Source: a virus
Lineage: Duplodnaviria; Caudoviricetes
DNA: 64,000 bases
IMG/VR virus record: IMGVR_UViG_3300034198_027116
Location: 1,766 to 65,765 of that record
Reading direction: 5' to 3' (one strand)
Shown here: positions 1,873-11,338 of the stretch, piece by piece
How positions within the stretch are numbered: position 1 is the stretch's first letter
How the letters are laid out: each line of letters opens with the position of its first letter
The notes under the pieces: model-generated
The model's input: only the letters and a program-made list of their open reading frames with translations
The model's database searches: none
Told to the model about the DNA's origin: nothing
Program-made: the position numbers and the translations under genes

Positions 1873-1901
1873 TTTCATTTGGTTACACAGTATGGTAATC
1901 T
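1873..1901 (+). promoter_or_regulatory. early promoter P2
   Basis: TTTCAT-17 bp (ending CAGTATGG)-TAATCT. Confidence 0.75.
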
Positions 1902-1907
1902 TGAAGA

Positions 1908-2010
1908 GTGAGAAGTTTCCGTTATCGCTTTCGCAACCCGGCAGCGACAAGGGCAACTGATTGCCTCAGCTCGATTGACCCGTCGAGCGCCAATCTCTTA
2001 CAGGGTCAAC
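1908..2010 (+). ncRNA. candidate structured 5' leader with pseudoknot next to the RBS
   Basis: Hairpin GCTCGA/TCGAGC (1969-1988); its loop TTGACCC is complementary to GGGTCAA (2003-2009); additional small stems. Confidence 0.45.
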
Positions 2011-2026
2011 AGGAAGGATGGTTGTC

Positions 2027-2527
2027 ATGACCACCAGCAACGAGATCGTCCCCAGCAGCCTCACCGACATCGAGGGACTGGACACCAACGACCCGGCGGT
2101 TGCCGCGCTGCTCCAGCGCTACGCCGACCTGGAGGCCAAAGCGCAGCGCTCCCCGCGCCAGCGCAAGTCCTTCGGCGAGATGTGGAACAAGCGCATCGCC
2201 ACTCCCGTCGAGAAGATGCCGGCCGGCTACAAGATCATCGTCGAGTGGCTCATCGACGAGGGCCACATCGAGCAGGAGCAGGCCGGGCTGGTGTACGCCG
2301 CCTGCTGGTCGTACCAGTGCGCCGAGGGCAAGGAGGTCCGCCACGCCGGGGGCGCCAGCCGCGAGGCGCTGAAGGAGGCGCGGGAGGCGCTGGAGAAGGC
2401 CGCGCACTCGCGCATGACCAGCCAGCCCGAGGCCAACGCCGACGACGACACCGACGACGACGACATTGAGGACGAGGACATCGACCTCGACGACATCGAC
2501 GACGAGGACATCGACGACGAGGAGTAG
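2027..2527 (+). CDS. acidic-tailed early protein, paralog A
   Basis: AGGAAGG RBS; LDTNDPAVAALLQRYADLE N-terminal motif; D/E-rich C-terminal tail. Confidence 0.85.
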   Translation: MTTSNEIVPSSLTDIEGLDTNDPAVAALLQRYADLEAKAQRSPRQRKSFGEMWNKRIATPVEKMPAGYKIIVEWLIDEGHIEQEQAGLVYAACWSYQCAEGKEVRHAGGASREALKEAREALEKAAHSRMTSQPEANADDDTDDDDIEDEDIDLDDIDDEDIDDEE

Positions 2528-2534
2528 CGCAACC

Positions 2535-2561
2535 GGGGCGGCCGGCAACGCCGGCCGCCCC
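2535..2561 (+). terminator. GC hairpin abutting hammerhead 1
   Basis: GGGGCGGCCGGC-AAC-GCCGGCCGCCCC. Confidence 0.6.
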
Positions 2562-2619
2562 TGCGTCGCCCCGGGGTGGTGCCCGGCGGCCTGATGAGGC
2601 AGCCCTTGCCGAAACGCAG
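2561..2619 (+). ncRNA. type III hammerhead ribozyme (HHR1), predicted cleavage after C2567 (GUC)
   Basis: Stem III CUGCGU/ACGCAG; stem I GCC-CCGGG/CCCGG-c-GGC; core CUGAUGA (2591-2597); stem II GGCA/UGCC; GAAA (2611-2614). Confidence 0.9.
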
Positions 2620-2698
2620 CAACTACCAACCTCCTATGGCCTAGCCGATTGCCGTTTCTGACGGCAATCGGCTAGCGGCCAAGGAGAAGGGAGATGGA

Positions 2699-2929
2699 AT
2701 GGACCCGCAACTGCGAGCGTATTGGGAGATCGCCATTCTCAAGCGCACCTGCGCCGAGCACGCGCAACGCAGGATTCAGCTGGAGCAGAATCGCCTGACG
2801 ATCCGCTCCGCAACCGATCAGATCGGCTGCCGCATCTGGCACGTTCGCGCGCTCCAAGCGACGCGGCGTGCCATTCGTGATTGCGAGCGCGACATCAAGG
2901 AGTGCCTCGGATGCGCGTGCGGCGACTGA
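2699..2929 (+). CDS. hypothetical protein
   Basis: AAGGAGAAGGGAG RBS. Confidence 0.6.
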   Translation: MDPQLRAYWEIAILKRTCAEHAQRRIQLEQNRLTIRSATDQIGCRIWHVRALQATRRAIRDCERDIKECLGCACGD

Positions 2930-3111
2930 TCGAACTCGGACAACTCACGCGCGCAACGGAGCCGGCGCTGGTCGAGCTGTGGCAGCGTCAGCTGGAGTTG
3001 CCCTACCTCGGCGATGCCACGATCGGGATGCTGAAGCTCAGCAACGGCGCGTTGGCAACCAACGTCGAGGCAATCAACGCTCTGGTAAGAGGAGGTCGCA
3101 TCGATGCCTGA
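2911..3111 (+). CDS. hypothetical protein
   Basis: AAGGAG RBS before ATG 2911; fills the operon. Confidence 0.55.
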   Translation: MRVRRLIELGQLTRATEPALVELWQRQLELPYLGDATIGMLKLSNGALATNVEAINALVRGGRIDA

Positions 3112-3703
3112 CATCGAGCGCTGCAACTGCGGCGACGACTGGCGCCGCTGCGACTGCAGCTGCGCGCCAACCGAGAACCCGCAGTTCATCGGCGAGTACG
3201 CGGCCGGTCAGCTGGCCGAGGGCGACGTTGCCGCTCCGTGGATGTACCCGGAGACCGACATCCAGTGCTACCGCAGCGTGCCCTGGTTGTACGCGGACGG
3301 CAAGTTGGAGGACGTACTGCGGCACGACCTGCTGTACGTCCTCAACGACCACCGCGCAACCAGCCTCATCTGGCGTCGCAGGGAAACCTTCGACGGCGAT
3401 GTCTACTGGTTCGCAGCCATGCTGCCCGGCATCCACCACGTGACTGTCGAGCGCATCCCCTGCGTGGCCTACGTGTGGCACCGCATGGTTGACGTAGGCT
3501 TCAGCGGTGAGATCCGCAACCTGCACGAGACAAGCGGCCACGTGATGATGCTGGACGACAGCGAAGCCATCGCCAACGCGGCTGAGATCCAGGCGCAGCA
3601 CAACGCAAGAGCGCTGCCGTTGCTCAACGCAGCGACTGGCGAGGAGCGGCGTGCGCTGGACCGCGCAGCCTACCTCGCCGACATCCTCTCCGACACCAAC
3701 TAG
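3104..3703 (+). CDS. hypothetical protein with N-terminal Cys cluster
   Basis: GGAGG RBS; CNC...CDCSC. Confidence 0.8.
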   Translation: MPDIERCNCGDDWRRCDCSCAPTENPQFIGEYAAGQLAEGDVAAPWMYPETDIQCYRSVPWLYADGKLEDVLRHDLLYVLNDHRATSLIWRRRETFDGDVYWFAAMLPGIHHVTVERIPCVAYVWHRMVDVGFSGEIRNLHETSGHVMMLDDSEAIANAAEIQAQHNARALPLLNAATGEERRALDRAAYLADILSDTN

Positions 3704-3718
3704 AACAGGAGCAAGACT

Positions 3719-4009
3719 ATGCCCAAGAAGCCCCCGAAGCGCACTCGCGAGCGCGACACCCTCAACAAGGCAGCCAAGATGGAGCGCAACCGTTTCATCC
3801 GGGTGGTGCGCGGCGCACGCAAGGTCGGCAACCCCGATCCCGGCTACGGCGCGTGGCGCAACGAGTGGCTCGATGCCACCGAGCACAGCGGCAAGCGGGT
3901 CAACCGCGACGGCCGCATCCTGACCGACCACTCCCAGGTCGTCAGCCAGACGGAGCGGCTGCGCGCCGAGTTCCAGCGCTTCGCCGCACCGCACTTCGGC
4001 CTGCGCTAG
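3719..4009 (+). CDS. basic hypothetical protein
   Basis: AGGAG RBS. Confidence 0.75.
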   Translation: MPKKPPKRTRERDTLNKAAKMERNRFIRVVRGARKVGNPDPGYGAWRNEWLDATEHSGKRVNRDGRILTDHSQVVSQTERLRAEFQRFAAPHFGLR

Positions 4010-4030
4010 CTGCTCAAGCGCGACCCACCA

Positions 4031-4064
4031 GCCCCGGTAGACGGCAACGTCTACCGGGGCTTTC
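4031..4064 (+). terminator. intrinsic terminator-like hairpin
   Basis: GCCCCGGTAGACG-GCAA-CGTCTACCGGGGC followed by TTTCGTGCTTT. Confidence 0.7.
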
Positions 4065-4236
4065 GTGCTTTCTGGGTGCGCGCCGAGGGCTGCTGAGCCT
4101 GGTTGCCGCCCTCGCGCAATCGAAAACGCGCAGATTGCGGACAACGACGCATCCCGCTTTGCGAAAGTGAAAGCCGGTTGTCTTGGTGCGCGCAGTTGTT
4201 GCGTGCTTAGCCAGACGAAAGCAAGTCGTACAGGGA

Positions 4237-4265
4237 TTTCCTTTCTATCGACAGTATGGTATAAT
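4237..4265 (+). promoter_or_regulatory. early promoter P3
   Basis: TTTCCT-17 bp (ending CAGTATGG)-TATAAT. Confidence 0.85.
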
Positions 4266-4347
4266 CTAATCAGACAGAAGAAACGTCTCGCAGATGTACA
4301 ATCCCCGATGCATCCGCTATCACCAATCAGGGGAAGGGAGAACCATC

Positions 4348-4950
4348 ATGTCCAATGTCGACGAGATGCCGGATCTGGATACCAGCGATCCGGCGATCGC
4401 AGAACTGGTTGACCGGCTGGAAGACCTCGAACAGCAGGTGGAGGCCAAGGAGCAGGCCAAACTGGCAAAGGCGAACCGCAAGCGCCCGGGTCAGTCCGTG
4501 CCGCGCATGACGCTCGAGGAGCAGTTCGTCTACGACCTGGCCCTCACCGAGGTGGACGTGCCGGGTGGCCGTCGCCGCGATGCCATCGCGGACGGATACG
4601 CCAAGATCTACGACCTGCTCATGTCGCGCGTGGGCACCGAACTGGAGGAGTACGTCGAGGCCAACGGCTTCACGCTCCAGCTGCTCATGGCAACCATGAA
4701 GGTGTACTACTCCAAGGAGGGTCGCATCGTGCGCGGTGAGCAGCCGCGCGCCAAGGGTGACCAGACCCCGCAGCCGGCCGCTCCGATCGCCACTCCTGGT
4801 CCTACCACGGACGGCAACACGGAGGACGAGCAGCCGACTCAGGAGGCAGACGTTCTCGGCATCGACGCTGACGACATCGGCATCGACCTGAGCGACCTGG
4901 TCGGCGACGACGTGCTCGCCGGCTTCGTGTTCGGCGACGACGATGACTGA
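4348..4950 (+). CDS. acidic-tailed early protein, paralog B
   Basis: GGGAG RBS before ATG 4348; LDTSDPAIAELVDRLEDLE motif; acidic tail ending FGDDDD. Confidence 0.85.
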   Translation: MSNVDEMPDLDTSDPAIAELVDRLEDLEQQVEAKEQAKLAKANRKRPGQSVPRMTLEEQFVYDLALTEVDVPGGRRRDAIADGYAKIYDLLMSRVGTELEEYVEANGFTLQLLMATMKVYYSKEGRIVRGEQPRAKGDQTPQPAAPIATPGPTTDGNTEDEQPTQEADVLGIDADDIGIDLSDLVGDDVLAGFVFGDDDD

Positions 4951-4955
4951 TCGCT

Positions 4956-4986
4956 CGCAGCCGCCCGGCGTTGCCGGGCGGCTGTG
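4956..4986 (+). terminator. GC hairpin abutting hammerhead 2
   Basis: CGCAGCCGCCCGGC-GTT-GCCGGGCGGCTGTG. Confidence 0.6.
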
Positions 4987-5047
4987 GCTTCGCTGGAAAC
5001 TAATCCAGCCTGAACGAGCGCTGGGTAGTTACCAGCCGAAAAGCCAC
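4984..5047 (+). ncRNA. variant type III hammerhead ribozyme (HHR2), predicted cleavage after C4991 (UUC)
   Basis: Stem III GUGGCUU/AAGCCAC; stem I GCUGGA/UCCAGC; core CUGAACGA (one extra nt); stem II G(c)GCUGG/CCAGCC; GAA; loop I AACUA complementary to loop II UAGUU. Confidence 0.75.
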
Positions 5048-5156
5048 GCGTGGACGATCTGGTCGGTACGGGCACTGCCACCCCATTCCTTGGTGAACCC
5101 GTGCGCGTGTCATCGACTGCTATCCAGCGCTCGTTCATCAACCAACAGGAGGGGTT

Positions 5157-5237
5157 ATGCGAATCCAGATGCTGATGATCGGAATCGTGGTGCTAGCGTT
5201 GCTGATCGGCGCCGCAGCCAGCGGCGATAGCAAGTGA
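5157..5237 (+). CDS. 26-aa hydrophobic peptide
   Basis: AGGAGG RBS; MRIQMLMIGIVVLALLIGAAASGDSK; GTGA overlap with next gene. Confidence 0.55.
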   Translation: MRIQMLMIGIVVLALLIGAAASGDSK

Positions 5238-5488
5238 CGAGTGCGGAGATCGTTGCGGAGGAGGCGCCAACCGCTACGATAGAGCCAGTGGTAAAGGAAC
5301 TGGACTCGCGCATCGTCGATACCGACAAGGGTCGCTACAGCGTCAGGTTGCTGTGGCGCAGCACCGACAACACCCTAGTCGTCACGGCGTCAGTTATCGG
5401 TGGCGAGGAAGTCGCCACCCGCAAGGTACCCCGGCACATGGCCAGCGAGGCCATGCGACATCCGGTCGTGTACCTGAACCTCATCTGA
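5234..5488 (+). CDS. hypothetical protein
   Basis: ORF coupled to upstream peptide. Confidence 0.7.
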   Translation: MTSAEIVAEEAPTATIEPVVKELDSRIVDTDKGRYSVRLLWRSTDNTLVVTASVIGGEEVATRKVPRHMASEAMRHPVVYLNLI

Positions 5489-5509
5489 TTCGCTCAAAGG
5501 AGAGAAGCG

Positions 5510-5869
5510 ATGTCCGAGCAACTGCCCTATCGGGTAACCCTGCGCTTTGAGATCCCTGTCGACGTGACGGCAAGCACCGAGGCGTCTGCGGTTGACCGCG
5601 CAATGGCCGAGTGCTACAGGCAGCACCCCTCGCTGGAGTCTCGCGACTTCGAGCACGAGGTCGAGAGCAGCCTGTGCGCAGACTGCGGCAAGCAGTTTCC
5701 CTTCCAGCGCTTTGAGGCTGGCTACGAGAACTGTCTGGCCTGCAGCCAGGCCAACCCGATCGTTGACACGTACGTGCTCAGCGCCAGCGGGTTCAAGAAC
5801 AACGGCGCCGAGCTGGTGCGCGTCGAGCAGCACTTCAAGAACCAGCAGGACAATCACGTCCGCGGATAG
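5510..5869 (+). CDS. zinc-finger protein (CADC...CLAC, DksA/TraR-like spacing)
   Basis: AAGGAG RBS; C4 motif. Confidence 0.7.
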   Translation: MSEQLPYRVTLRFEIPVDVTASTEASAVDRAMAECYRQHPSLESRDFEHEVESSLCADCGKQFPFQRFEAGYENCLACSQANPIVDTYVLSASGFKNNGAELVRVEQHFKNQQDNHVRG

Positions 5870-6410: not shown

Positions 6411-7186
6411 GCGCCGTCGACGCATTCGCAGAGGCGCAGCGCCGCCTGGAGCAGCTCGAGCTGCTGGTGGACGAGCGCAAGGTGCGGTCCAACGCCAAGC
6501 CGTGGGACGGTAGCCTGCTGGACCTCGTGCAGAAGTACGTCGAACTCACCATCGACAACGGTTCGCATCACGAGACCGTGCGCTTTCGCGCCTGGGGCAA
6601 CCTCAGCGACAAGCTGAACGAGCGCAAGACGTTTCTCAAGCCTGCCTTCTACTTCGTGGACCTTGGCAGCGGATGGAACGCGCTGAACATCGCTCGCGTC
6701 CAGGTGTACTACGCCAAGGACGATAACGGTGAGGAGATCATCGACCAGCGCACGTACCGCTTCAACCTCAACCAGGAACTGGTCAGGGACTCGCGCTTGC
6801 ACGGTCGGGTCAACGAGCGCATGCACAACGTGATCGCTCGCAAGCTGGGCGTTCACGTCGACAGCCCCATGGGTTTGGCGTCTAGCGACGAAGCCATGGC
6901 AGCCGTCCTGCGCTACACGCGCAGCGGTGCCTACGCGGCGCACCTCTGCTTCCTGGCGCTGACCGGCACTGACCTGGAGCAGGACGCGTACACCGACGTA
7001 CTGGGCGTGCACCGCCAGCCGTCGTCGAAGTACACCATCCAACCCGTGACGCGTTGCGTGCGTTGCGCTCGCAAGTTGACGGCGCCTGCGTCCATCGACG
7101 CAGCCTTCGGCCCAGACTGCCAGCGCATCGTGTTCGGCTCCACCGAGGCGTACAACACGCGAGTGCTGGGAGGGAAGCGACGATGA
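6407..7186 (+). CDS. protein with C-terminal DUF6011-like zinc finger
   Basis: GGAGG RBS, GTG 6407; CVRCARKLTAPASIDAAFGPDC. Confidence 0.75.
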   Translation: MSAVDAFAEAQRRLEQLELLVDERKVRSNAKPWDGSLLDLVQKYVELTIDNGSHHETVRFRAWGNLSDKLNERKTFLKPAFYFVDLGSGWNALNIARVQVYYAKDDNGEEIIDQRTYRFNLNQELVRDSRLHGRVNERMHNVIARKLGVHVDSPMGLASSDEAMAAVLRYTRSGAYAAHLCFLALTGTDLEQDAYTDVLGVHRQPSSKYTIQPVTRCVRCARKLTAPASIDAAFGPDCQRIVFGSTEAYNTRVLGGKRR

Positions 7187-7764: not shown

Positions 7765-7982
7765 GCGTACAGATCGAAACGAATGCGGTCAGTGAGAACT
7801 TTGTCATTGACTACAGCGAGGAGCAGGTGACGGTTCGCCTGCATCCTGATTGCACTGGCTGTTTCAGTGTTCACGTTGTCGATGACACCGCAGAGACGCT
7901 AGAGTTCACTCTCCAGCATGATGGTGAGTCCTGCCCGGTCCACTCGGTTTCCACCGGGTTGGCGCCGCGAGAGGGGGCGTGA
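7761..7982 (+). CDS. hypothetical protein
   Basis: GGAGG RBS; ATGA coupling. Confidence 0.65.
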   Translation: MSVQIETNAVSENFVIDYSEEQVTVRLHPDCTGCFSVHVVDDTAETLEFTLQHDGESCPVHSVSTGLAPREGA

Positions 7983-8206
7983 TGCGCGCCGTGTGCAAGG
8001 TCATCCTCAACGACGAGCAGTGGGCCGAGGTGCTGCAGTGCTTGTGGTGGCAGACCGTCAGCAGCCAATCCTCGCACCTCGCCGCGATTGCCCACTCCGT
8101 ACAGGAGCAGGTAGAGCGCCAGCAGGAGGCCTCGCTCATCGACCTCGACCCACGCGAGGTCGAGTTGCGTCGGTGGGATGGCGAGCGCGAGGTGCCGGCA
8201 CTGTGA
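7979..8206 (+). CDS. hypothetical protein
   Basis: Coupled ORF. Confidence 0.65.
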   Translation: MMRAVCKVILNDEQWAEVLQCLWWQTVSSQSSHLAAIAHSVQEQVERQQEASLIDLDPREVELRRWDGEREVPAL

Positions 8207-8985
8207 ACTCGCAAGACCCGACGACCTGGCCAGCCTTCGCACTCTGCGCCGAGGCAGAGGCGCTTCCGCGCAACGCGGGAGAGCGCCTCTGGCAGCGCAA
8301 GGCAGATGGGTGCCGCGCTTACCTGACGAAAGAGCTGCTGATGTTTCGGGGCGGCAAGCCCACGCGGCACAACCTCGCCATCGCGGAGCGGATGCCTAGC
8401 GACTGGTTGCTGGACGGAGAGCTGGTGTCTCCCGCGCAAAACGTAGGCGAGTGCACCTCGCTCGTGGCATCTAGGTCCTGGCAGTCGCTCTCGTTCCAGG
8501 TATTCGATGCGCTGACGATGAGCGGCATCGACCTTCGCGTCCTGCCCTACTACAAGCGGTGGGATGCGCTCAACCAGGTCTTGCCAAACGACGTGGTAGA
8601 GGTGCACTGCCTGCCCAACCACGAGATGCCTCCCATCCCCGAGGGATGGGAGGGCATCGTGGGCAAGGACCTCAACGCGCGCTGGCAACCGGGGCGTACC
8701 CGTGCTTCCGTCAAGTGGAAGATCACCGGCGAGCTGCAGGCGATCATCACAGGCTTTAGCGAGGGCAGCGGGTCGTGGCGTCACAGCGTTGGCAAGGTGC
8801 ACTTTGGCCTCGCTAACGCTCAGGGCGAGATCGTTGAGGTAGGCGTCGCTGGCGGCCTCGGCACCTTCGATCGGCGGCGCTTCTGGGCAACGCCCGAGCA
8901 GTTCGTAGGTAGAGGGTGCGTCATCCGTCACTACGGCATGAACCGCAACAAGCTGCGCAATCCCATCTTCGTGGGACTGCGCTGA
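8203..8985 (+). CDS. minimal ATP-dependent DNA ligase
   Basis: KADGCR (KxDGxR), LDGEL, FQVFD, WEGIVGK, VKWK, OB-fold ending LRNPIFVGLR. Confidence 0.88.
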   Translation: MNSQDPTTWPAFALCAEAEALPRNAGERLWQRKADGCRAYLTKELLMFRGGKPTRHNLAIAERMPSDWLLDGELVSPAQNVGECTSLVASRSWQSLSFQVFDALTMSGIDLRVLPYYKRWDALNQVLPNDVVEVHCLPNHEMPPIPEGWEGIVGKDLNARWQPGRTRASVKWKITGELQAIITGFSEGSGSWRHSVGKVHFGLANAQGEIVEVGVAGGLGTFDRRRFWATPEQFVGRGCVIRHYGMNRNKLRNPIFVGLR

Positions 8986-9186: not shown

Positions 9187-9735
9187 ATGACAACCGGAGA
9201 TGAGTTGCGCGGCAGATGCCGTGGCCTCAGCATCGAGCAGTTAGAGGAACTGATCGAGGAGCAGGAGAGCGACGAGATGCGCGAGGTGCTGGTGGACGTG
9301 CTGCAGCAGCGACGCGATCGGCAGACCGGCGAAGCACCCGCTCCCGCTCGCAAGAAGCGCGGACGAACCGCACTTCGCGCGGAGCAGCCCCGAGACATCG
9401 CAACCAACTCCGCTGACCTGTTCATGCAGGATGAGGAGCGCGCGGCTGCCTGGCGCGAGGCTCTCGTGGAAGCGACTGACGAGAACGGCAACGTCGCCCT
9501 GACCGGACGCATCGTGCAGCTGGCGGTGGGCGCTTACTACGCTGAGCGTCGCGCGCAGAAGCGCAAGCGAGTGAGCGAGGCAAAGGTTGTCTCCGAGGCC
9601 GCACCTGAGCCGGTTGCTGCTCAGGCCGAGGCCGAACCGGCGCAGCTCGATGACGTCAATCCCGACGACCTGCTGCTCTCGGCGGATCTGGTAGCGGACG
9701 GCTTCCTGCCCATCCGCGCACCCGGAGAGGAGTGA
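9187..9735 (+). CDS. acidic-tailed protein, possible distant paralog C
   Basis: GAGGAG RBS; similar layout to the 4348 protein. Confidence 0.75.
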   Translation: MTTGDELRGRCRGLSIEQLEELIEEQESDEMREVLVDVLQQRRDRQTGEAPAPARKKRGRTALRAEQPRDIATNSADLFMQDEERAAAWREALVEATDENGNVALTGRIVQLAVGAYYAERRAQKRKRVSEAKVVSEAAPEPVAAQAEAEPAQLDDVNPDDLLLSADLVADGFLPIRAPGEE

Positions 9736-10141: not shown

Positions 10142-10329
10142 CAGTCCTGGGACCCAACGACGATATGCGCATCATCATCGGAAACCGACCGGTGCGACGC
10201 GTCGGCGTGGATGTCTCGTTCGACGAGTTGATGAGCGGGATGATCAACCGCCTGAGCAACCCGCAGCATCGCATCGCAACCCCGCACGTAGATCGCCTCG
10301 GTCGCCCCAAGGCCGAGGACGGTGAGTAG
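10138..10329 (+). CDS. hypothetical protein
   Basis: GGAGG RBS; coupled. Confidence 0.6.
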   Translation: MTVLGPNDDMRIIIGNRPVRRVGVDVSFDELMSGMINRLSNPQHRIATPHVDRLGRPKAEDGE

Positions 10330-10335
10330 GGCGAG

Positions 10336-10509
10336 ATGTTCAACCTACAGGCCGAGGTCTCGGAGTGGCTCGTGCAGATGGTGTTCAAGCATCTGCAGAT
10401 CGACCCCGCAGATCAGAAGGAGTTCAATCGCATCATCACCGATGCGCGGTTCCACGAGACAGTTCTCTACTTACAGGAAGGTCAAGACGATGAACACACC
10501 GCAGGCTAA
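10336..10509 (+). CDS. small hypothetical protein (57 aa, not in the ORF track)
   Basis: MFNLQAEVSEWLVQMVFKHLQID... fills the gap before Ku. Confidence 0.5.
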   Translation: MFNLQAEVSEWLVQMVFKHLQIDPADQKEFNRIITDARFHETVLYLQEGQDDEHTAG

Positions 10510-11338
10510 GGCACCCAGCCGAGCCACCACCACGACCGTGCTAAGCCTCGGGCTAGCCAGCATCTCGGTCGAGCTGCTGACGGGATCGGAGGAGTCGCGT
10601 GTCTCGCGCTCGCAGTTCGTGGTCGTGAGCAGCGACGGCGAGCACCCGCTGCCCGAGTACCACCCGGTCGGTACCAAGCCGTACGACAAGGTCACCGGCG
10701 AGGACGTCAGCCGAGACGCCATCGTCAAGGGTGTGACGGTCGGCAGTGACGTCGTCCTCGTGAGCGACGAGGAGATGGCATCCTTCGGCATGGAGCGCGG
10801 CGAGACTCCCATCCTGGGCTTCGTGCGCCGCGCAGACCTGACCGCCGAGCAGCTGCGCTGGCTGGTCCCCACCAAGATCTACCAGGTGCGCCCCGCCGCT
10901 CTGCGCGTCGGCAAGGACAAGCGCCCCAACCGCTCGGCGCAGAAGCTGTTCACGCTGCTGATGGGATCGCTGGAGCGCAGCGACGCGTGGGCGCTCGTCG
11001 CCCTGACGCTGCGCGACGGCGGCGCCAAGCGGTACGGGATGCTCGACCATCACGGGCGCCTATCCGTGATGGCGTACGCGCAGGATCTGCGCGAGGAGGC
11101 TGACCTGCCGGTGATCGACACCACGGAACAGGAGCAGGCGCTGATGGATCAGATGATCGCCGGCAACGTCCTCTCGGATCTGCCGTCCTTCGACAACGAG
11201 TCCCGCCAGATGCTCGACGATCTGGTGACGCGCAAGCTCAACGGCGAAGAGATCGTGCAGGTCGCCGCCGTGACCGCGACCGAGCAGGAGCAGGATGTCG
11301 CTGAGCTGCTGCGCAAGAGCCTGGGGCTGGACTCGTGA
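10490..11338 (+). CDS. ku: Ku DNA end-binding protein (NHEJ)
   Basis: LSLGLASISVEL, DKVTGEDVSRDAIVKG, ILGFV, YQVRP, DLR...EQEQAL, KLNG...LLRKSL are typical of prokaryotic Ku. Confidence 0.88.
   Translation: MNTPQAKAPSRATTTTVLSLGLASISVELLTGSEESRVSRSQFVVVSSDGEHPLPEYHPVGTKPYDKVTGEDVSRDAIVKGVTVGSDVVLVSDEEMASFGMERGETPILGFVRRADLTAEQLRWLVPTKIYQVRPAALRVGKDKRPNRSAQKLFTLLMGSLERSDAWALVALTLRDGGAKRYGMLDHHGRLSVMAYAQDLREEADLPVIDTTEQEQALMDQMIAGNVLSDLPSFDNESRQMLDDLVTRKLNGEEIVQVAAVTATEQEQDVAELLRKSLGLDS

What the first reader, a model, noticed from the sequence alone, without database searches (positions are those of the whole stretch)
1873..5047. Candidate new system: duplicated cassette of promoter, acidic protein, GC hairpin and hammerhead ribozyme
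The same architecture appears twice. Cassette 1: P2, paralog A (2027-2527), 12-bp hairpin, HHR1 (2561-2619). Cassette 2: P3, paralog B (4348-4950), hairpin, HHR2 (4984-5047). The two ribozymes have unrelated stem sequences but the same type III topology and position, which argues for long-term selection. Hammerhead cleavage is known to leave a 2',3'-cyclic phosphate upstream and a 5'-OH downstream. Inference: self-cleavage releases a hairpin-protected monocistronic mRNA for each acidic protein and gives the downstream cistrons a 5'-OH end that is a poor substrate for monophosphate-stimulated RNases. This would be host-independent operon processing in the earliest transcripts. Hammerheads in phages are known, but I do not know of this gene-family coupling.
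Basis: partly seen in the sequence, partly recalled or inferred. Interest (0 to 1): 0.92.

Follow-up and report, generated by a model that had tools for sequence, protein, structure and literature searches.

The report
Two hammerhead ribozymes in phage early operons
An uncultivated tailed phage carries two self-cutting hammerhead RNA motifs, each right behind a strong hairpin that follows the first, very acidic, gene of an early operon; this is a new example of a known habit of phages, and cutting has not been tested.

Summary
My hammerhead descriptor finds exactly two loci in the 64-kb window, 2561-2619 and 4983-5048. Shuffles gave a mean of 0.015 hits; 0 of 200 gave two.

HHR1 has the full type III consensus. 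It fails Rfam's thresholds and could not be compared with relatives.

HHR2 has one extra core base and a bulged C. The one relative I could fetch (L003) keeps it behind the paralog B homologue. Of 19 shared pairs, 7 changed on both sides and none broke, and the core is identical.

A and B are weak but probable paralogs. Both have a net charge near -25. Each is the first gene behind a shared promoter box.

Most likely, co-transcriptional cleavage separates a hairpin-ended first-cistron mRNA from the downstream cistrons. That idea is already published for clustered phage hammerheads (PMC3088659, PMC6765202), so this is a new member of a known kind.

The gene-family coupling rests on one relative for B and is untested for A.

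The more unusual feature is a conserved 18-19-bp antisense arm that can unfold HHR2.

There are no RNA data.

The parts
1888..1901 (+). Promoter box P2 (CAGTATGG fused to a -10-like hexamer), upstream of A
   Evidence: one of 6 matches with <=3 mismatches, all on the + strand, against 0.74 expected. This copy has 3 mismatches. The generic sigma-70 scan does not flag it.
2027..2527 (+). CDS A, 166 aa, net charge -26, with an acidic C-terminal tail. No known family.
   Evidence: Homologues P0009-P0011. AF2 model of low confidence, helical with a disordered tail.
2535..2561 (+). 12-bp GC hairpin with a 3-nt loop and no U-tract. Its last base is the first base of HHR1 stem III.
   Evidence: I2, 100% complementary; fold; sequence.
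2561..2619 (+). HHR1, a type III hammerhead motif with full consensus core. Predicted cleavage is between 2567 and 2568.
   Evidence: descriptor; the MFE of the 59-mer is the hammerhead fold, -27.2 kcal/mol, z -0.99. RF02276, 30.2 bits, below gathering.
2630..2687 (+). 58-nt hairpin between HHR1 and the next start codon. Its outer arms pair a CCUCCU stretch with the AGGAG Shine-Dalgarno region.
   Evidence: I1, 15-nt perfect arms 2641-2655/2661-2675; fold (z -4.34); alignment.
2699..4009 (+). Downstream cistrons of operon 1: 2699-2929, 2911-3111, 3104-3703, 3719-4009. No known families.
4030..4066 (+). Terminator-like hairpin with a U-rich tail that ends operon 1
   Evidence: Read. The scan does not flag it (4 T in the 8-nt tail).
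4252..4265 (+). Promoter box P3, the best copy
   Evidence: 0 mismatches. The same box, with one difference, lies upstream of the B homologue in L003.
4348..4950 (+). CDS B, 200 aa, net charge -25, with an acidic tail. Distant paralog of A.
   Evidence: Homologues P0002-P0007. Rare family: 9 representatives at E<=0.001 among 1.84 billion.
4957..4985 (+). GC hairpin (12 perfect pairs plus a G-U) with a 3-nt loop and no U-tract. It overlaps HHR2 stem III by 2-3 bases.
   Evidence: I2; fold.
4983..5048 (+). HHR2, a type III hammerhead-like motif. It has one extra base between A6 and G8 and a bulged C after G10.1. Predicted cleavage is between 4991 and 4992. Loop I (4998-5002) is complementary to loop II (5026-5030).
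   Evidence: against L003, of 19 pairs 11 are the same, 1 is one-sided, 7 are compensatory and 0 are broken. Loops read.
5119..5136 (+). Antisense arm that pairs with 5012-5029 (core, stem II 5' strand and loop II) over 18 bp
   Evidence: The rod fold is favoured over the hammerhead fold in the full leader.
5157..5869 (+). Downstream cistrons of operon 2: 5157-5237 (26-aa hydrophobic peptide), 5234-5488, 5510-5869
   Evidence: Homologues of the first two follow the ribozyme in L003.

Best explanation
Two cis-acting type III hammerhead ribozymes are built into two host-promoter-driven early operons of an uncultivated myovirus. Each sits directly behind a GC hairpin that follows the first cistron, which encodes an acidic protein of unknown function (A or B).

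Proposed mechanism:
1. As RNA polymerase reads through the hairpin (it has no U-tract in this phage), the ribozyme folds and cuts after C2567 or C4991.
2. The upstream product is a monocistronic A or B message ending in the hairpin plus 6 nt and a 2',3'-cyclic phosphate.
3. The downstream product starts with a 5'-OH at the first base of the stem I hairpin and carries the remaining cistrons.
4. The two halves can then decay and be translated independently, without a host RNase.

Status of each step:
- Shown: motif anatomy, rarity by chance, conservation of HHR2 with covariation, operon layout.
- Inferred: cleavage itself, its extent, and the effect on stability.
- HHR2 is probably slow, and a conserved downstream arm probably gates it or traps its product.
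For: - Exactly 2 descriptor hits in 64 kb, against 0.015 expected.
- The same descriptor passes 0 of 35 unrelated IMG/VR loci that contain the HHR2 core words.
- HHR1 has every consensus core base, G10.1-C11.1, A15.1-U16.1 and a GUC site, and its MFE is the hammerhead fold.
- Hammerhead_II is the only ribozyme family to appear in Rfam E-value mode: E=0.0023 on 3.5 kb and 0.041 on 64 kb.
- An HHR2 homologue sits behind the B homologue's hairpin in L003. The core is identical, and of 19 shared pairs 7 are compensatory and 0 broken, including 4 of 8 in stem III, which has no role in the competing rod fold.
- In isolation the L003 element's MFE is the three-way junction.
- Indels of 14, 6, 10 and 6 nt in the alignment argue against coding.
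- Layout: each cassette runs from a promoter box through the first gene, hairpin, ribozyme and a large stem-loop to further cistrons.
- After cleavage the 3' product begins with a base-paired 5' end in both the window and L003.
- Literature: clustered hammerheads flank single genes in prophages, and the three tandem arrangements tested (about 2-kb constructs) cleaved in vitro (PMC3088659, passages read). The idea of processing into transcripts of different stability is stated in PMC6765202 (passage read).
Against: - No hammerhead model of Rfam reaches its gathering score. RF02276 scores 30.2 against 37, in a register that misses the GAAA. RF00008 gives nothing at E<=10.
- HHR1 has no comparative support at all, and its folding z-score is unremarkable (-0.99; 29 of 200 shuffles fold as well).
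- HHR2 departs from the consensus at two places next to the active site. An insertion after A6 was reported to give low activity (PMC3088659, section 8).
- The window's isolated HHR2 prefers a rod (-35.4) to the hammerhead fold (-26.1).
- The full leaders prefer the long-range rod by 16.1 kcal/mol (window) and 6.9 kcal/mol (L003).
- Covariation rests on one independent relative, aligned by me from the core outward.
- No RNA data exist.
- The effect on stability is inference from recalled knowledge of 5'-end-dependent RNases.
Confidence: 0.55

Rival explanations
1. Only HHR1 is a working ribozyme. HHR2 is a decayed or attenuated hammerhead, and what is conserved is the approximately 125-nt rod-shaped leader (5012-5136) of the downstream operon. 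That leader would act as a structured 5' UTR or protein-binding RNA, without cleavage.
For: - Core insertion and bulged C.
- An insertion after A6 is reported as slow (PMC3088659, section 8).
- The rod is the MFE of the full leader in both phages.
- The long-range helix is kept: of 18 pairs, 11 are the same, 5 one-sided, 2 compensatory and 0 broken.
- Inner helices covary.
- The strictly conserved 10 bases of the core are also the conserved base of the rod.
Against: - Stems I and III play no part in the rod, yet keep pairing through 6 double changes.
- N17 stays a non-G, and A15.1-U16.1 and G10.1-C11.1 are kept.
- The first 10 bp of a plain helix would be expected to covary rather than stay identical, which suggests a second constraint on that strand.
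Confidence: 0.2
2. The ribozymes are regulators, not stabilisers. Cleavage removes the downstream cistrons from a protected 5' leader and lowers their expression, or cleavage is gated so that the ratio of first gene to later genes changes during infection. For HHR2 the gate would be the antisense arm. For HHR1 it could be pairings between the hairpin arms and stem I.
For: - The antisense arm starts in the unpaired core (a ready toehold) and lies only about 70-90 nt behind the ribozyme.
- 2533-2540 is perfectly complementary to 2567-2574, which covers the cleavage site and stem I 5' strand. 2549-2559 is 82% complementary to 2578-2588.
- The discussion of PMC3088659 raises regulated cleavage for phage hammerheads (passage read).
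Against: - GC-rich sequence gives many short complementarities by chance.
- No ligand, protein or translation link is shown.
- The 12-bp hairpin should outcompete the 8-nt alternative.
Confidence: 0.15
3. The two same-sense hammerheads excise the 2.4-kb RNA between them (2568-4991). It would carry 5'-OH and 2',3'-cyclic phosphate ends, which a host RNA ligase could join into a circle or splice.
For: Both sites are on the same strand, 2424 nt apart. The possibility is mentioned in PMC3088659 (passage read).
Against: A terminator-like hairpin (4030-4066) and a new promoter (4252) lie between the sites. Perreault et al. looked for such products in their systems and found none (passage read).
Confidence: 0.03
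4. The motifs are chance look-alikes in GC-rich intergenic hairpin clusters.
For: Rfam thresholds are not met. The HHR1 fold energy is not unusual.
Against: 0 of 200 shuffles give two hits and 3 of 200 give one. HHR2 is conserved with covariation. Both motifs sit in the same position in two cassettes.
Confidence: 0.03

Closest known systems
Clustered cis-cleaving hammerhead ribozymes flanking single genes or short gene blocks in prophages and phages (Perreault et al. 2011, PMC3088659; also summarised in PMC6155905 and PMC6765202)
   Same: Several same-sense hammerheads lie a few kb apart in intergenic regions of a phage transcription unit, and the flanked genes are small and of unknown function. 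Processing of a polycistronic RNA into gene-length mRNAs has been proposed. One published cluster flanks ardA, an anti-restriction gene (passage read).
   Different: - Here each ribozyme is fused to a GC hairpin just behind the first cistron of an operon.
- The two first cistrons are distant paralogs.
- One ribozyme carries a conserved core insertion.
- That ribozyme is paired with a conserved antisense arm.
   Same: One extra nucleotide between A6 and G8, with the rest of the core intact.
   Different: I could not see the published sequence, so identity of the variant is not established. HHR2 also has a bulged C after G10.1, and both departures are conserved in a relative.
Rfam Hammerhead_II (RF02276), the pseudoknotted type II hammerheads of bacteria and phages. 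L042 from IMG/VR, seen, is an example by my reading.
   Same: HHR1 shares the stem I/loop I sequence pattern, the GUC site, the core and the AGCC after the first stem II pair with the model consensus (alignment).
   Different: HHR1 is closed at stem II and open at stem III (type III). The model's GAAA and stem III are not matched, and the score is below gathering.
RNase III processing of the phage T7 early polycistronic transcript, whose first gene encodes the acidic DNA mimic Ocr (recalled, no call)
   Same: A functional analogy only. Early mRNAs are cut between cistrons and keep a 3' hairpin, and the first early product is very acidic.
   Different: T7 uses a host enzyme and has no ribozyme. 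A and B show no detectable similarity to any known protein.

Membership tests
Hammerhead ribozyme (any topology) | Conserved core C3-U4-G5-A6-N7-G8-A9 and G12-A13-A14 | tested here: met
   HHR1 has CUGAUGA at 2591-2597 and GAA(A) at 2610-2613. HHR2 does NOT meet this strictly: it has one extra base between A6 and G8 (5010-5017), conserved in L003.
Hammerhead ribozyme (any topology) | Three helices around the core, with G10.1-C11.1 and A15.1-U16.1 closing pairs and a non-G at position 17 | tested here: met
   HHR1 has stems of 8, 4 and 6 bp and C17. HHR2 has stems of 6, 6 (with a bulge) and 8 bp and C17. L003 has U17.
Hammerhead ribozyme (any topology) | Score at or above the gathering threshold of an Rfam hammerhead covariance model | tested here: not met
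   0 matches at gathering. RF02276 scores 30.2 against 37 for HHR1 only. RF00008 gives no match at E<=10, with 11 candidates scored. HHR2 gives no hit at E<=10.
Hammerhead ribozyme (any topology) | Helices supported by compensatory changes in relatives | tested here: inconclusive
   HHR2: of 19 pairs, 7 are compensatory and 0 broken, but against a single independent relative, aligned by hand from the core. HHR1: no relative DNA could be obtained.
Hammerhead ribozyme (any topology) | Tertiary contact between stem I and stem II loops | tested here: inconclusive
   In the window's HHR2, 4998-5002 is complementary to 5026-5030 over 5 bp. L003 and HHR1 offer only 3-4 possible pairs by my reading.
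Hammerhead ribozyme (any topology) | Mg2+-dependent site-specific self-cleavage giving 2',3'-cyclic phosphate and 5'-OH ends | not testable with these tools
   No RNA run was listed. Only DNA contigs were laid.
Clustered phage hammerheads that flank genes (Perreault et al. 2011) | Two or more same-sense hammerheads within a few kb, in intergenic regions of a phage or prophage | tested here: met
   Two motifs on the + strand, 2424 nt apart and both intergenic, in a virus record with tail sheath, tape measure and DNA polymerase genes.
   B: 1 of 1 independent relative with DNA in hand keeps it (L002 and L003); that relative's protein lacks the acidic tail. A: 0 relatives with DNA in hand.

The most novel reading that the evidence does not exclude
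HHR2 with its conserved antisense arm is a natural, kinetically gated hammerhead. The ribozyme can fold only in the short time before the arm (5119-5136) is transcribed. The arm then invades through the unpaired catalytic core and unfolds stem II. This either fixes what share of transcripts is cut, or locks the cut product into a 5'-paired rod that cannot re-ligate.

Base 5024 covaries with both of its alternative partners: 5032 in stem II and 5124 in the rod. In L003 all three are changed (G to A, C to U, C to U), so both folds appear to be selected.
Probability: 0.35. Interest if true: 0.65.

Novelty: new member of a known kind. Interest (0 to 1): 0.4.

Why it matters
What hammerheads do in phages is still called an open question in the passages I read (PMC6155905, PMC6765202). 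This locus is a compact test case. It has two operons with one layout, a consensus ribozyme and a conserved variant ribozyme side by side, a defined 3' hairpin on the upstream product, a 5'-paired downstream product, and a built-in competitor strand.

If cleavage is shown, reporter constructs could measure directly whether ribozyme processing changes the relative output of the first and later cistrons. They could also test whether the antisense arm tunes it.

It does not change what is known about ribozyme classes, and the scan has already noted many phage hammerheads.

Tried and rejected
**Searches for relatives**
- GenBank phages: no match by blastn or by tblastn with A or B.
- IMG/VR with A, B, their alignments and the DNA polymerase: none.
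- GTDB genomes with both alignments: none.
- JGI metagenomes with the B alignment: 2 loci, the same in the stretch used.
- An exact pattern from the conserved leader found 0 loci in IMG/VR.
- A pattern from the HHR2 core found 35 loci. All look coding and none passes the descriptor.
- A pattern from HHR1 loop I plus the core found 5 loci. By my reading 1 (L042) is a type II hammerhead, 1 is a possible truncated one, and 3 are unrelated.

**RNA evidence**
- No RNA holder was listed.
- The three DNA runs, all from one study, gave only contigs and showed no variation inside either ribozyme.

**Protein function**
- Pfam, PHROGs and PDB profile searches gave nothing significant for A or B.
- The ESM Atlas gave no usable lead.
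- The AF2 models were of low confidence (pLDDT 51.8 and 61.2), so I ran no fold search.

**Other points**
- The MAFFT alignment of the three ribozymes was structurally wrong, so I did not use it for a covariance model or for the count of structure pairs.
- The third acidic-tailed ORF (9187-9735) has no hairpin or hammerhead behind it.
- The first 1800 bases of the record hold no further motif.
- A pseudoknot between HHR1 loop I and 2622-2627 is possible on paper. I judged it geometrically unlikely for a type III fold and did not test it.
- Supplements of PMC3088659 (Figures S6, S7), which may show the A6a variant, were closed.

Full report
**What the window is.** The window is bases 1766-65765 of a 65,765-base IMG/VR virus record, rated 77% complete. 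PHROG matches to a tail sheath, a tape measure, a tail protein, a family A-type DNA polymerase, an exonuclease, an ATP-dependent ligase and a Ku-like protein mark it as a tailed phage with a contractile tail. GC content is 63%. The finding lies near the left end, in a run of small + strand genes.

- *HHR1.* A 12-bp hairpin (2535-2546/2550-2561) starts 7 nt behind the stop codon of ORF A (2525-2527).
  - Its last base opens a 6-bp stem III (2561-2566 with 2614-2619).
  - Then come C17 at 2567, a stem I of 8 pairs with one bulge, the heptamer CUGAUGA, a 4-bp stem II closed by G-C, and GAAA.
- *HHR2.* The same order appears behind ORF B. The hairpin is at 4957-4985, stem III at 4983/4984-4990 with 5041-5048, C17 at 4991, stem I at 4992-5009, and stem II at 5018-5037.
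  - HHR2 departs in two ways: one extra base in the heptamer, and a bulged C after the first stem II pair.
- *Chance.* A descriptor of my own allows one or two bases at position 7 and one bulge or mismatch per hairpin.
  - It finds exactly these two loci on both strands of the 64 kb.
  - In 200 dinucleotide-preserving shuffles the mean was 0.015 hits, 3 of 200 had one and 0 of 200 had two.
  - Run on 38 fetched loci (308,449 bases), it passed only the own-genome copy of HHR1 and the two metagenome loci L002 and L003.
  - It passed 0 of 35 IMG/VR loci that contain the HHR2 core words.

**Results against the observation.**

- Rfam gives no match at gathering score in the whole window.
- In E-value mode the only ribozyme family is Hammerhead_II at 2543-2608: 30.2 bits against a gathering score of 37, with E=0.0023 on 3.5 kb and 0.041 on 64 kb.
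- That alignment uses the upstream hairpin as stem III and misses the GAAA. It reflects stem I, the core and the first bases of stem II, not the true topology.
- RF00008 (type III) finds nothing at E<=10 in the record.
- HHR2 finds no family at E<=10.
- HHR1's folding energy is unremarkable for this GC content (z -0.99; 29 of 200 shuffles fold as well), although its MFE is the hammerhead fold.

**The cassettes.**

- *Promoters.* A promoter-like box, CAGTATGG fused to a -10 hexamer, occurs 6 times with <=3 mismatches. All copies are on the + strand, against 0.74 expected. Copies lie at 1888 before A and at 4252 before B. The generic sigma-70 scan does not flag them.
- *Proteins.* A (166 aa) and B (200 aa) have net charges of -26 and -25 and acidic tails.
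- *Paralogy.* It is weak but probable: BLASTP E=9e-6 with 28% identity over 128 columns, and hhalign of the two family alignments gives probability 82%, E=1e-5 over 94 columns.
- *Function.* Neither protein matches Pfam, PHROGs or PDB sequences. AF2 models are of low confidence. The B family is rare: 9 representatives at E<=0.001 among 1.84 billion.
- *What follows each ribozyme.*
  - In cassette 1, a 58-nt hairpin (2630-2687) whose outer arms pair with the Shine-Dalgarno region, then four cistrons and a terminator-like hairpin.
  - In cassette 2, a rod of about 125 nt (5012-5136), then three cistrons.

**Comparative evidence.**

- Only two JGI metagenome contigs, L002 and L003, could be fetched. 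They are the same in this stretch.
- Their B homologue lacks the acidic tail. It is preceded by the same promoter box with one difference. It is followed by a 15-bp hairpin and then, starting at the hairpin's last base, a hammerhead-like element.
- I aligned the two elements from the core outward. The heptamer with its extra base, the bulged C and the GAAA are identical. Of 19 shared pairs, 11 are the same, 1 changed on one side, 7 changed on both sides and none is broken. By stem, the double changes are 4 of 8 pairs in stem III, 2 of 5 in stem I and 1 of 6 in stem II. N17 is C in the window and U in L003.
- The intergenic alignment has gaps of 14, 6, 10 and 6 nt, so it is not coding.
- In isolation the L003 element's MFE is the three-way junction. 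The window's alternative rod fold depends on stems I and II having the same sequence, which L003 does not share.
- I take this as good evidence that the hammerhead fold of HHR2 is selected, with the caveat that it rests on one independent comparison.
- Nothing comparable could be done for HHR1.

**The competing helix.**

- 5012-5029 (most of the core, the 5' strand of stem II and loop II) pairs with 5119-5136 over 18 bp. L003 has 19 bp at the same place.
- Of the 18 shared pairs, 11 are the same, 5 changed on one side through G-U and 2 are compensatory. The G-U pairs point to pairing in the + strand RNA.
- Base 5024 pairs with 5032 in stem II and with 5124 in the rod. All three differ in L003 in a way that keeps both pairs. 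The inner helices of the rod also covary.
- For the full leader the rod is favoured over an enforced hammerhead fold: -104.3 against -88.2 kcal/mol in the window, and -113.8 against -106.9 in L003.
- So HHR2 can act only before the arm is made, or the arm acts on the product.
- After cleavage both 3' products would begin with the stem I hairpin at base +1.

**How it most likely works.**

- The hairpins have no U-tract in this phage, so I infer read-through and co-transcriptional self-cleavage.
- The upstream product would be a monocistronic mRNA for A or B with a 3' hairpin and a 6-nt tail.
- The downstream product would be an mRNA with a 5'-OH, 5'-paired end.
- From recalled knowledge, a 3' hairpin slows 3' exonucleases, and a 5'-OH or paired 5' end is a poor entry point for 5'-monophosphate-stimulated RNases.
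- In L003 the hairpin is followed by a U-rich stem III strand. There it may also terminate a share of transcripts.
- All of these steps are inferred. No RNA run holds the sequence, and the laid runs are DNA contigs.

**Comparison with what is known.**

- Perreault et al. 2011 (PMC3088659; passages of sections 6, 9 and 11, and all of section 8, read) report four relevant points:
  - Multiple hammerheads often flank single genes or short blocks in prophages.
  - The identities of those genes are not constant.
  - Processing into gene-length mRNAs is implied.
  - The three tandem arrangements they tested (about 2-kb constructs) cleaved in vitro, and one of these clusters flanks ardA.
- They also tested a natural insertion after A6, which had low activity.
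- The 2017 and 2019 reviews (PMC6155905, PMC6765202; passages read) repeat the processing idea and call the function open.
- My searches of the library listed no paper on a phage hammerhead fused to a 3' hairpin or paired with an antisense arm. They were word searches of open-access text, so this is not proof of absence.
- The scan itself has many notes on phage hammerheads.

**Verdict.**

- The gene-family coupling is supported by one relative for B and is unknown for A.
- I file the cassettes as a new member of a known kind, with interest 0.4.
- The most novel element is the conserved antisense arm on a conserved variant-core hammerhead.

Noticed in passing
window 2630-2687: A 58-nt hairpin with 15-nt perfect arms (2641-2655/2661-2675). 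Its outer arms pair a CCUCCU stretch with the Shine-Dalgarno region of the next ORF (start at 2693 or 2699). It may mask translation or be a DNA palindrome for a binding protein. Its Rfam miRNA hits on both strands are spurious.
   Followed up: partly
window 5049-5118, L003 1205-1273: The inside of the rod behind HHR2 is conserved between the two phages. Small helices inside it covary, for example 5057-5059 with 5066-5068, and a 7-bp helix around 5070-5076 with 5102-5108 (alignment columns). It matches no Rfam family.
   Followed up: partly
window 1408, 1888, 4252, 5909, 11621, 37175: Six + strand copies of a CAGTATGG box fused to a -10-like hexamer, against 0.74 expected. The same box stands before the B homologue in L003. 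This is probably the phage's early promoter type.
   Followed up: partly
window 2533-2540 versus 2567-2574, and 2549-2559 versus 2578-2588: The arms of the hairpin before HHR1 are complementary to the cleavage site with the stem I 5' strand (8 nt, perfect) and to the stem I 3' strand (82%). These could be alternative pairings, or a by-product of GC-rich sequence.
   Followed up: no
window 7918-8985 and 10322-11338: The phage encodes an ATP-dependent DNA ligase and a Ku-like end-binding protein (PHROG 114 and 4873). Together these would be an end-joining pair.
   Followed up: no
L042, minus strand, about 6900-7000 of the reverse complement: An unrelated IMG/VR contig has what I read as a type II hammerhead between a stop codon and the next Shine-Dalgarno. 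Its loop I is complementary to the 3' tail.
   Followed up: no
L002 1240-1455, L003 3-161: In the metagenome relative, the homologue of window ORF 5510-5869 (weak DksA-like zinc-finger hit) lies upstream of the B homologue, not downstream. The early region is therefore rearranged, while the unit of promoter, B, hairpin, ribozyme and small peptide stays together.
   Followed up: partly
window 9187-9735: A third ORF with an acidic tail (net charge -13) has no hairpin or hammerhead behind it, and the next ORF starts 2 nt after its stop.
   Followed up: partly
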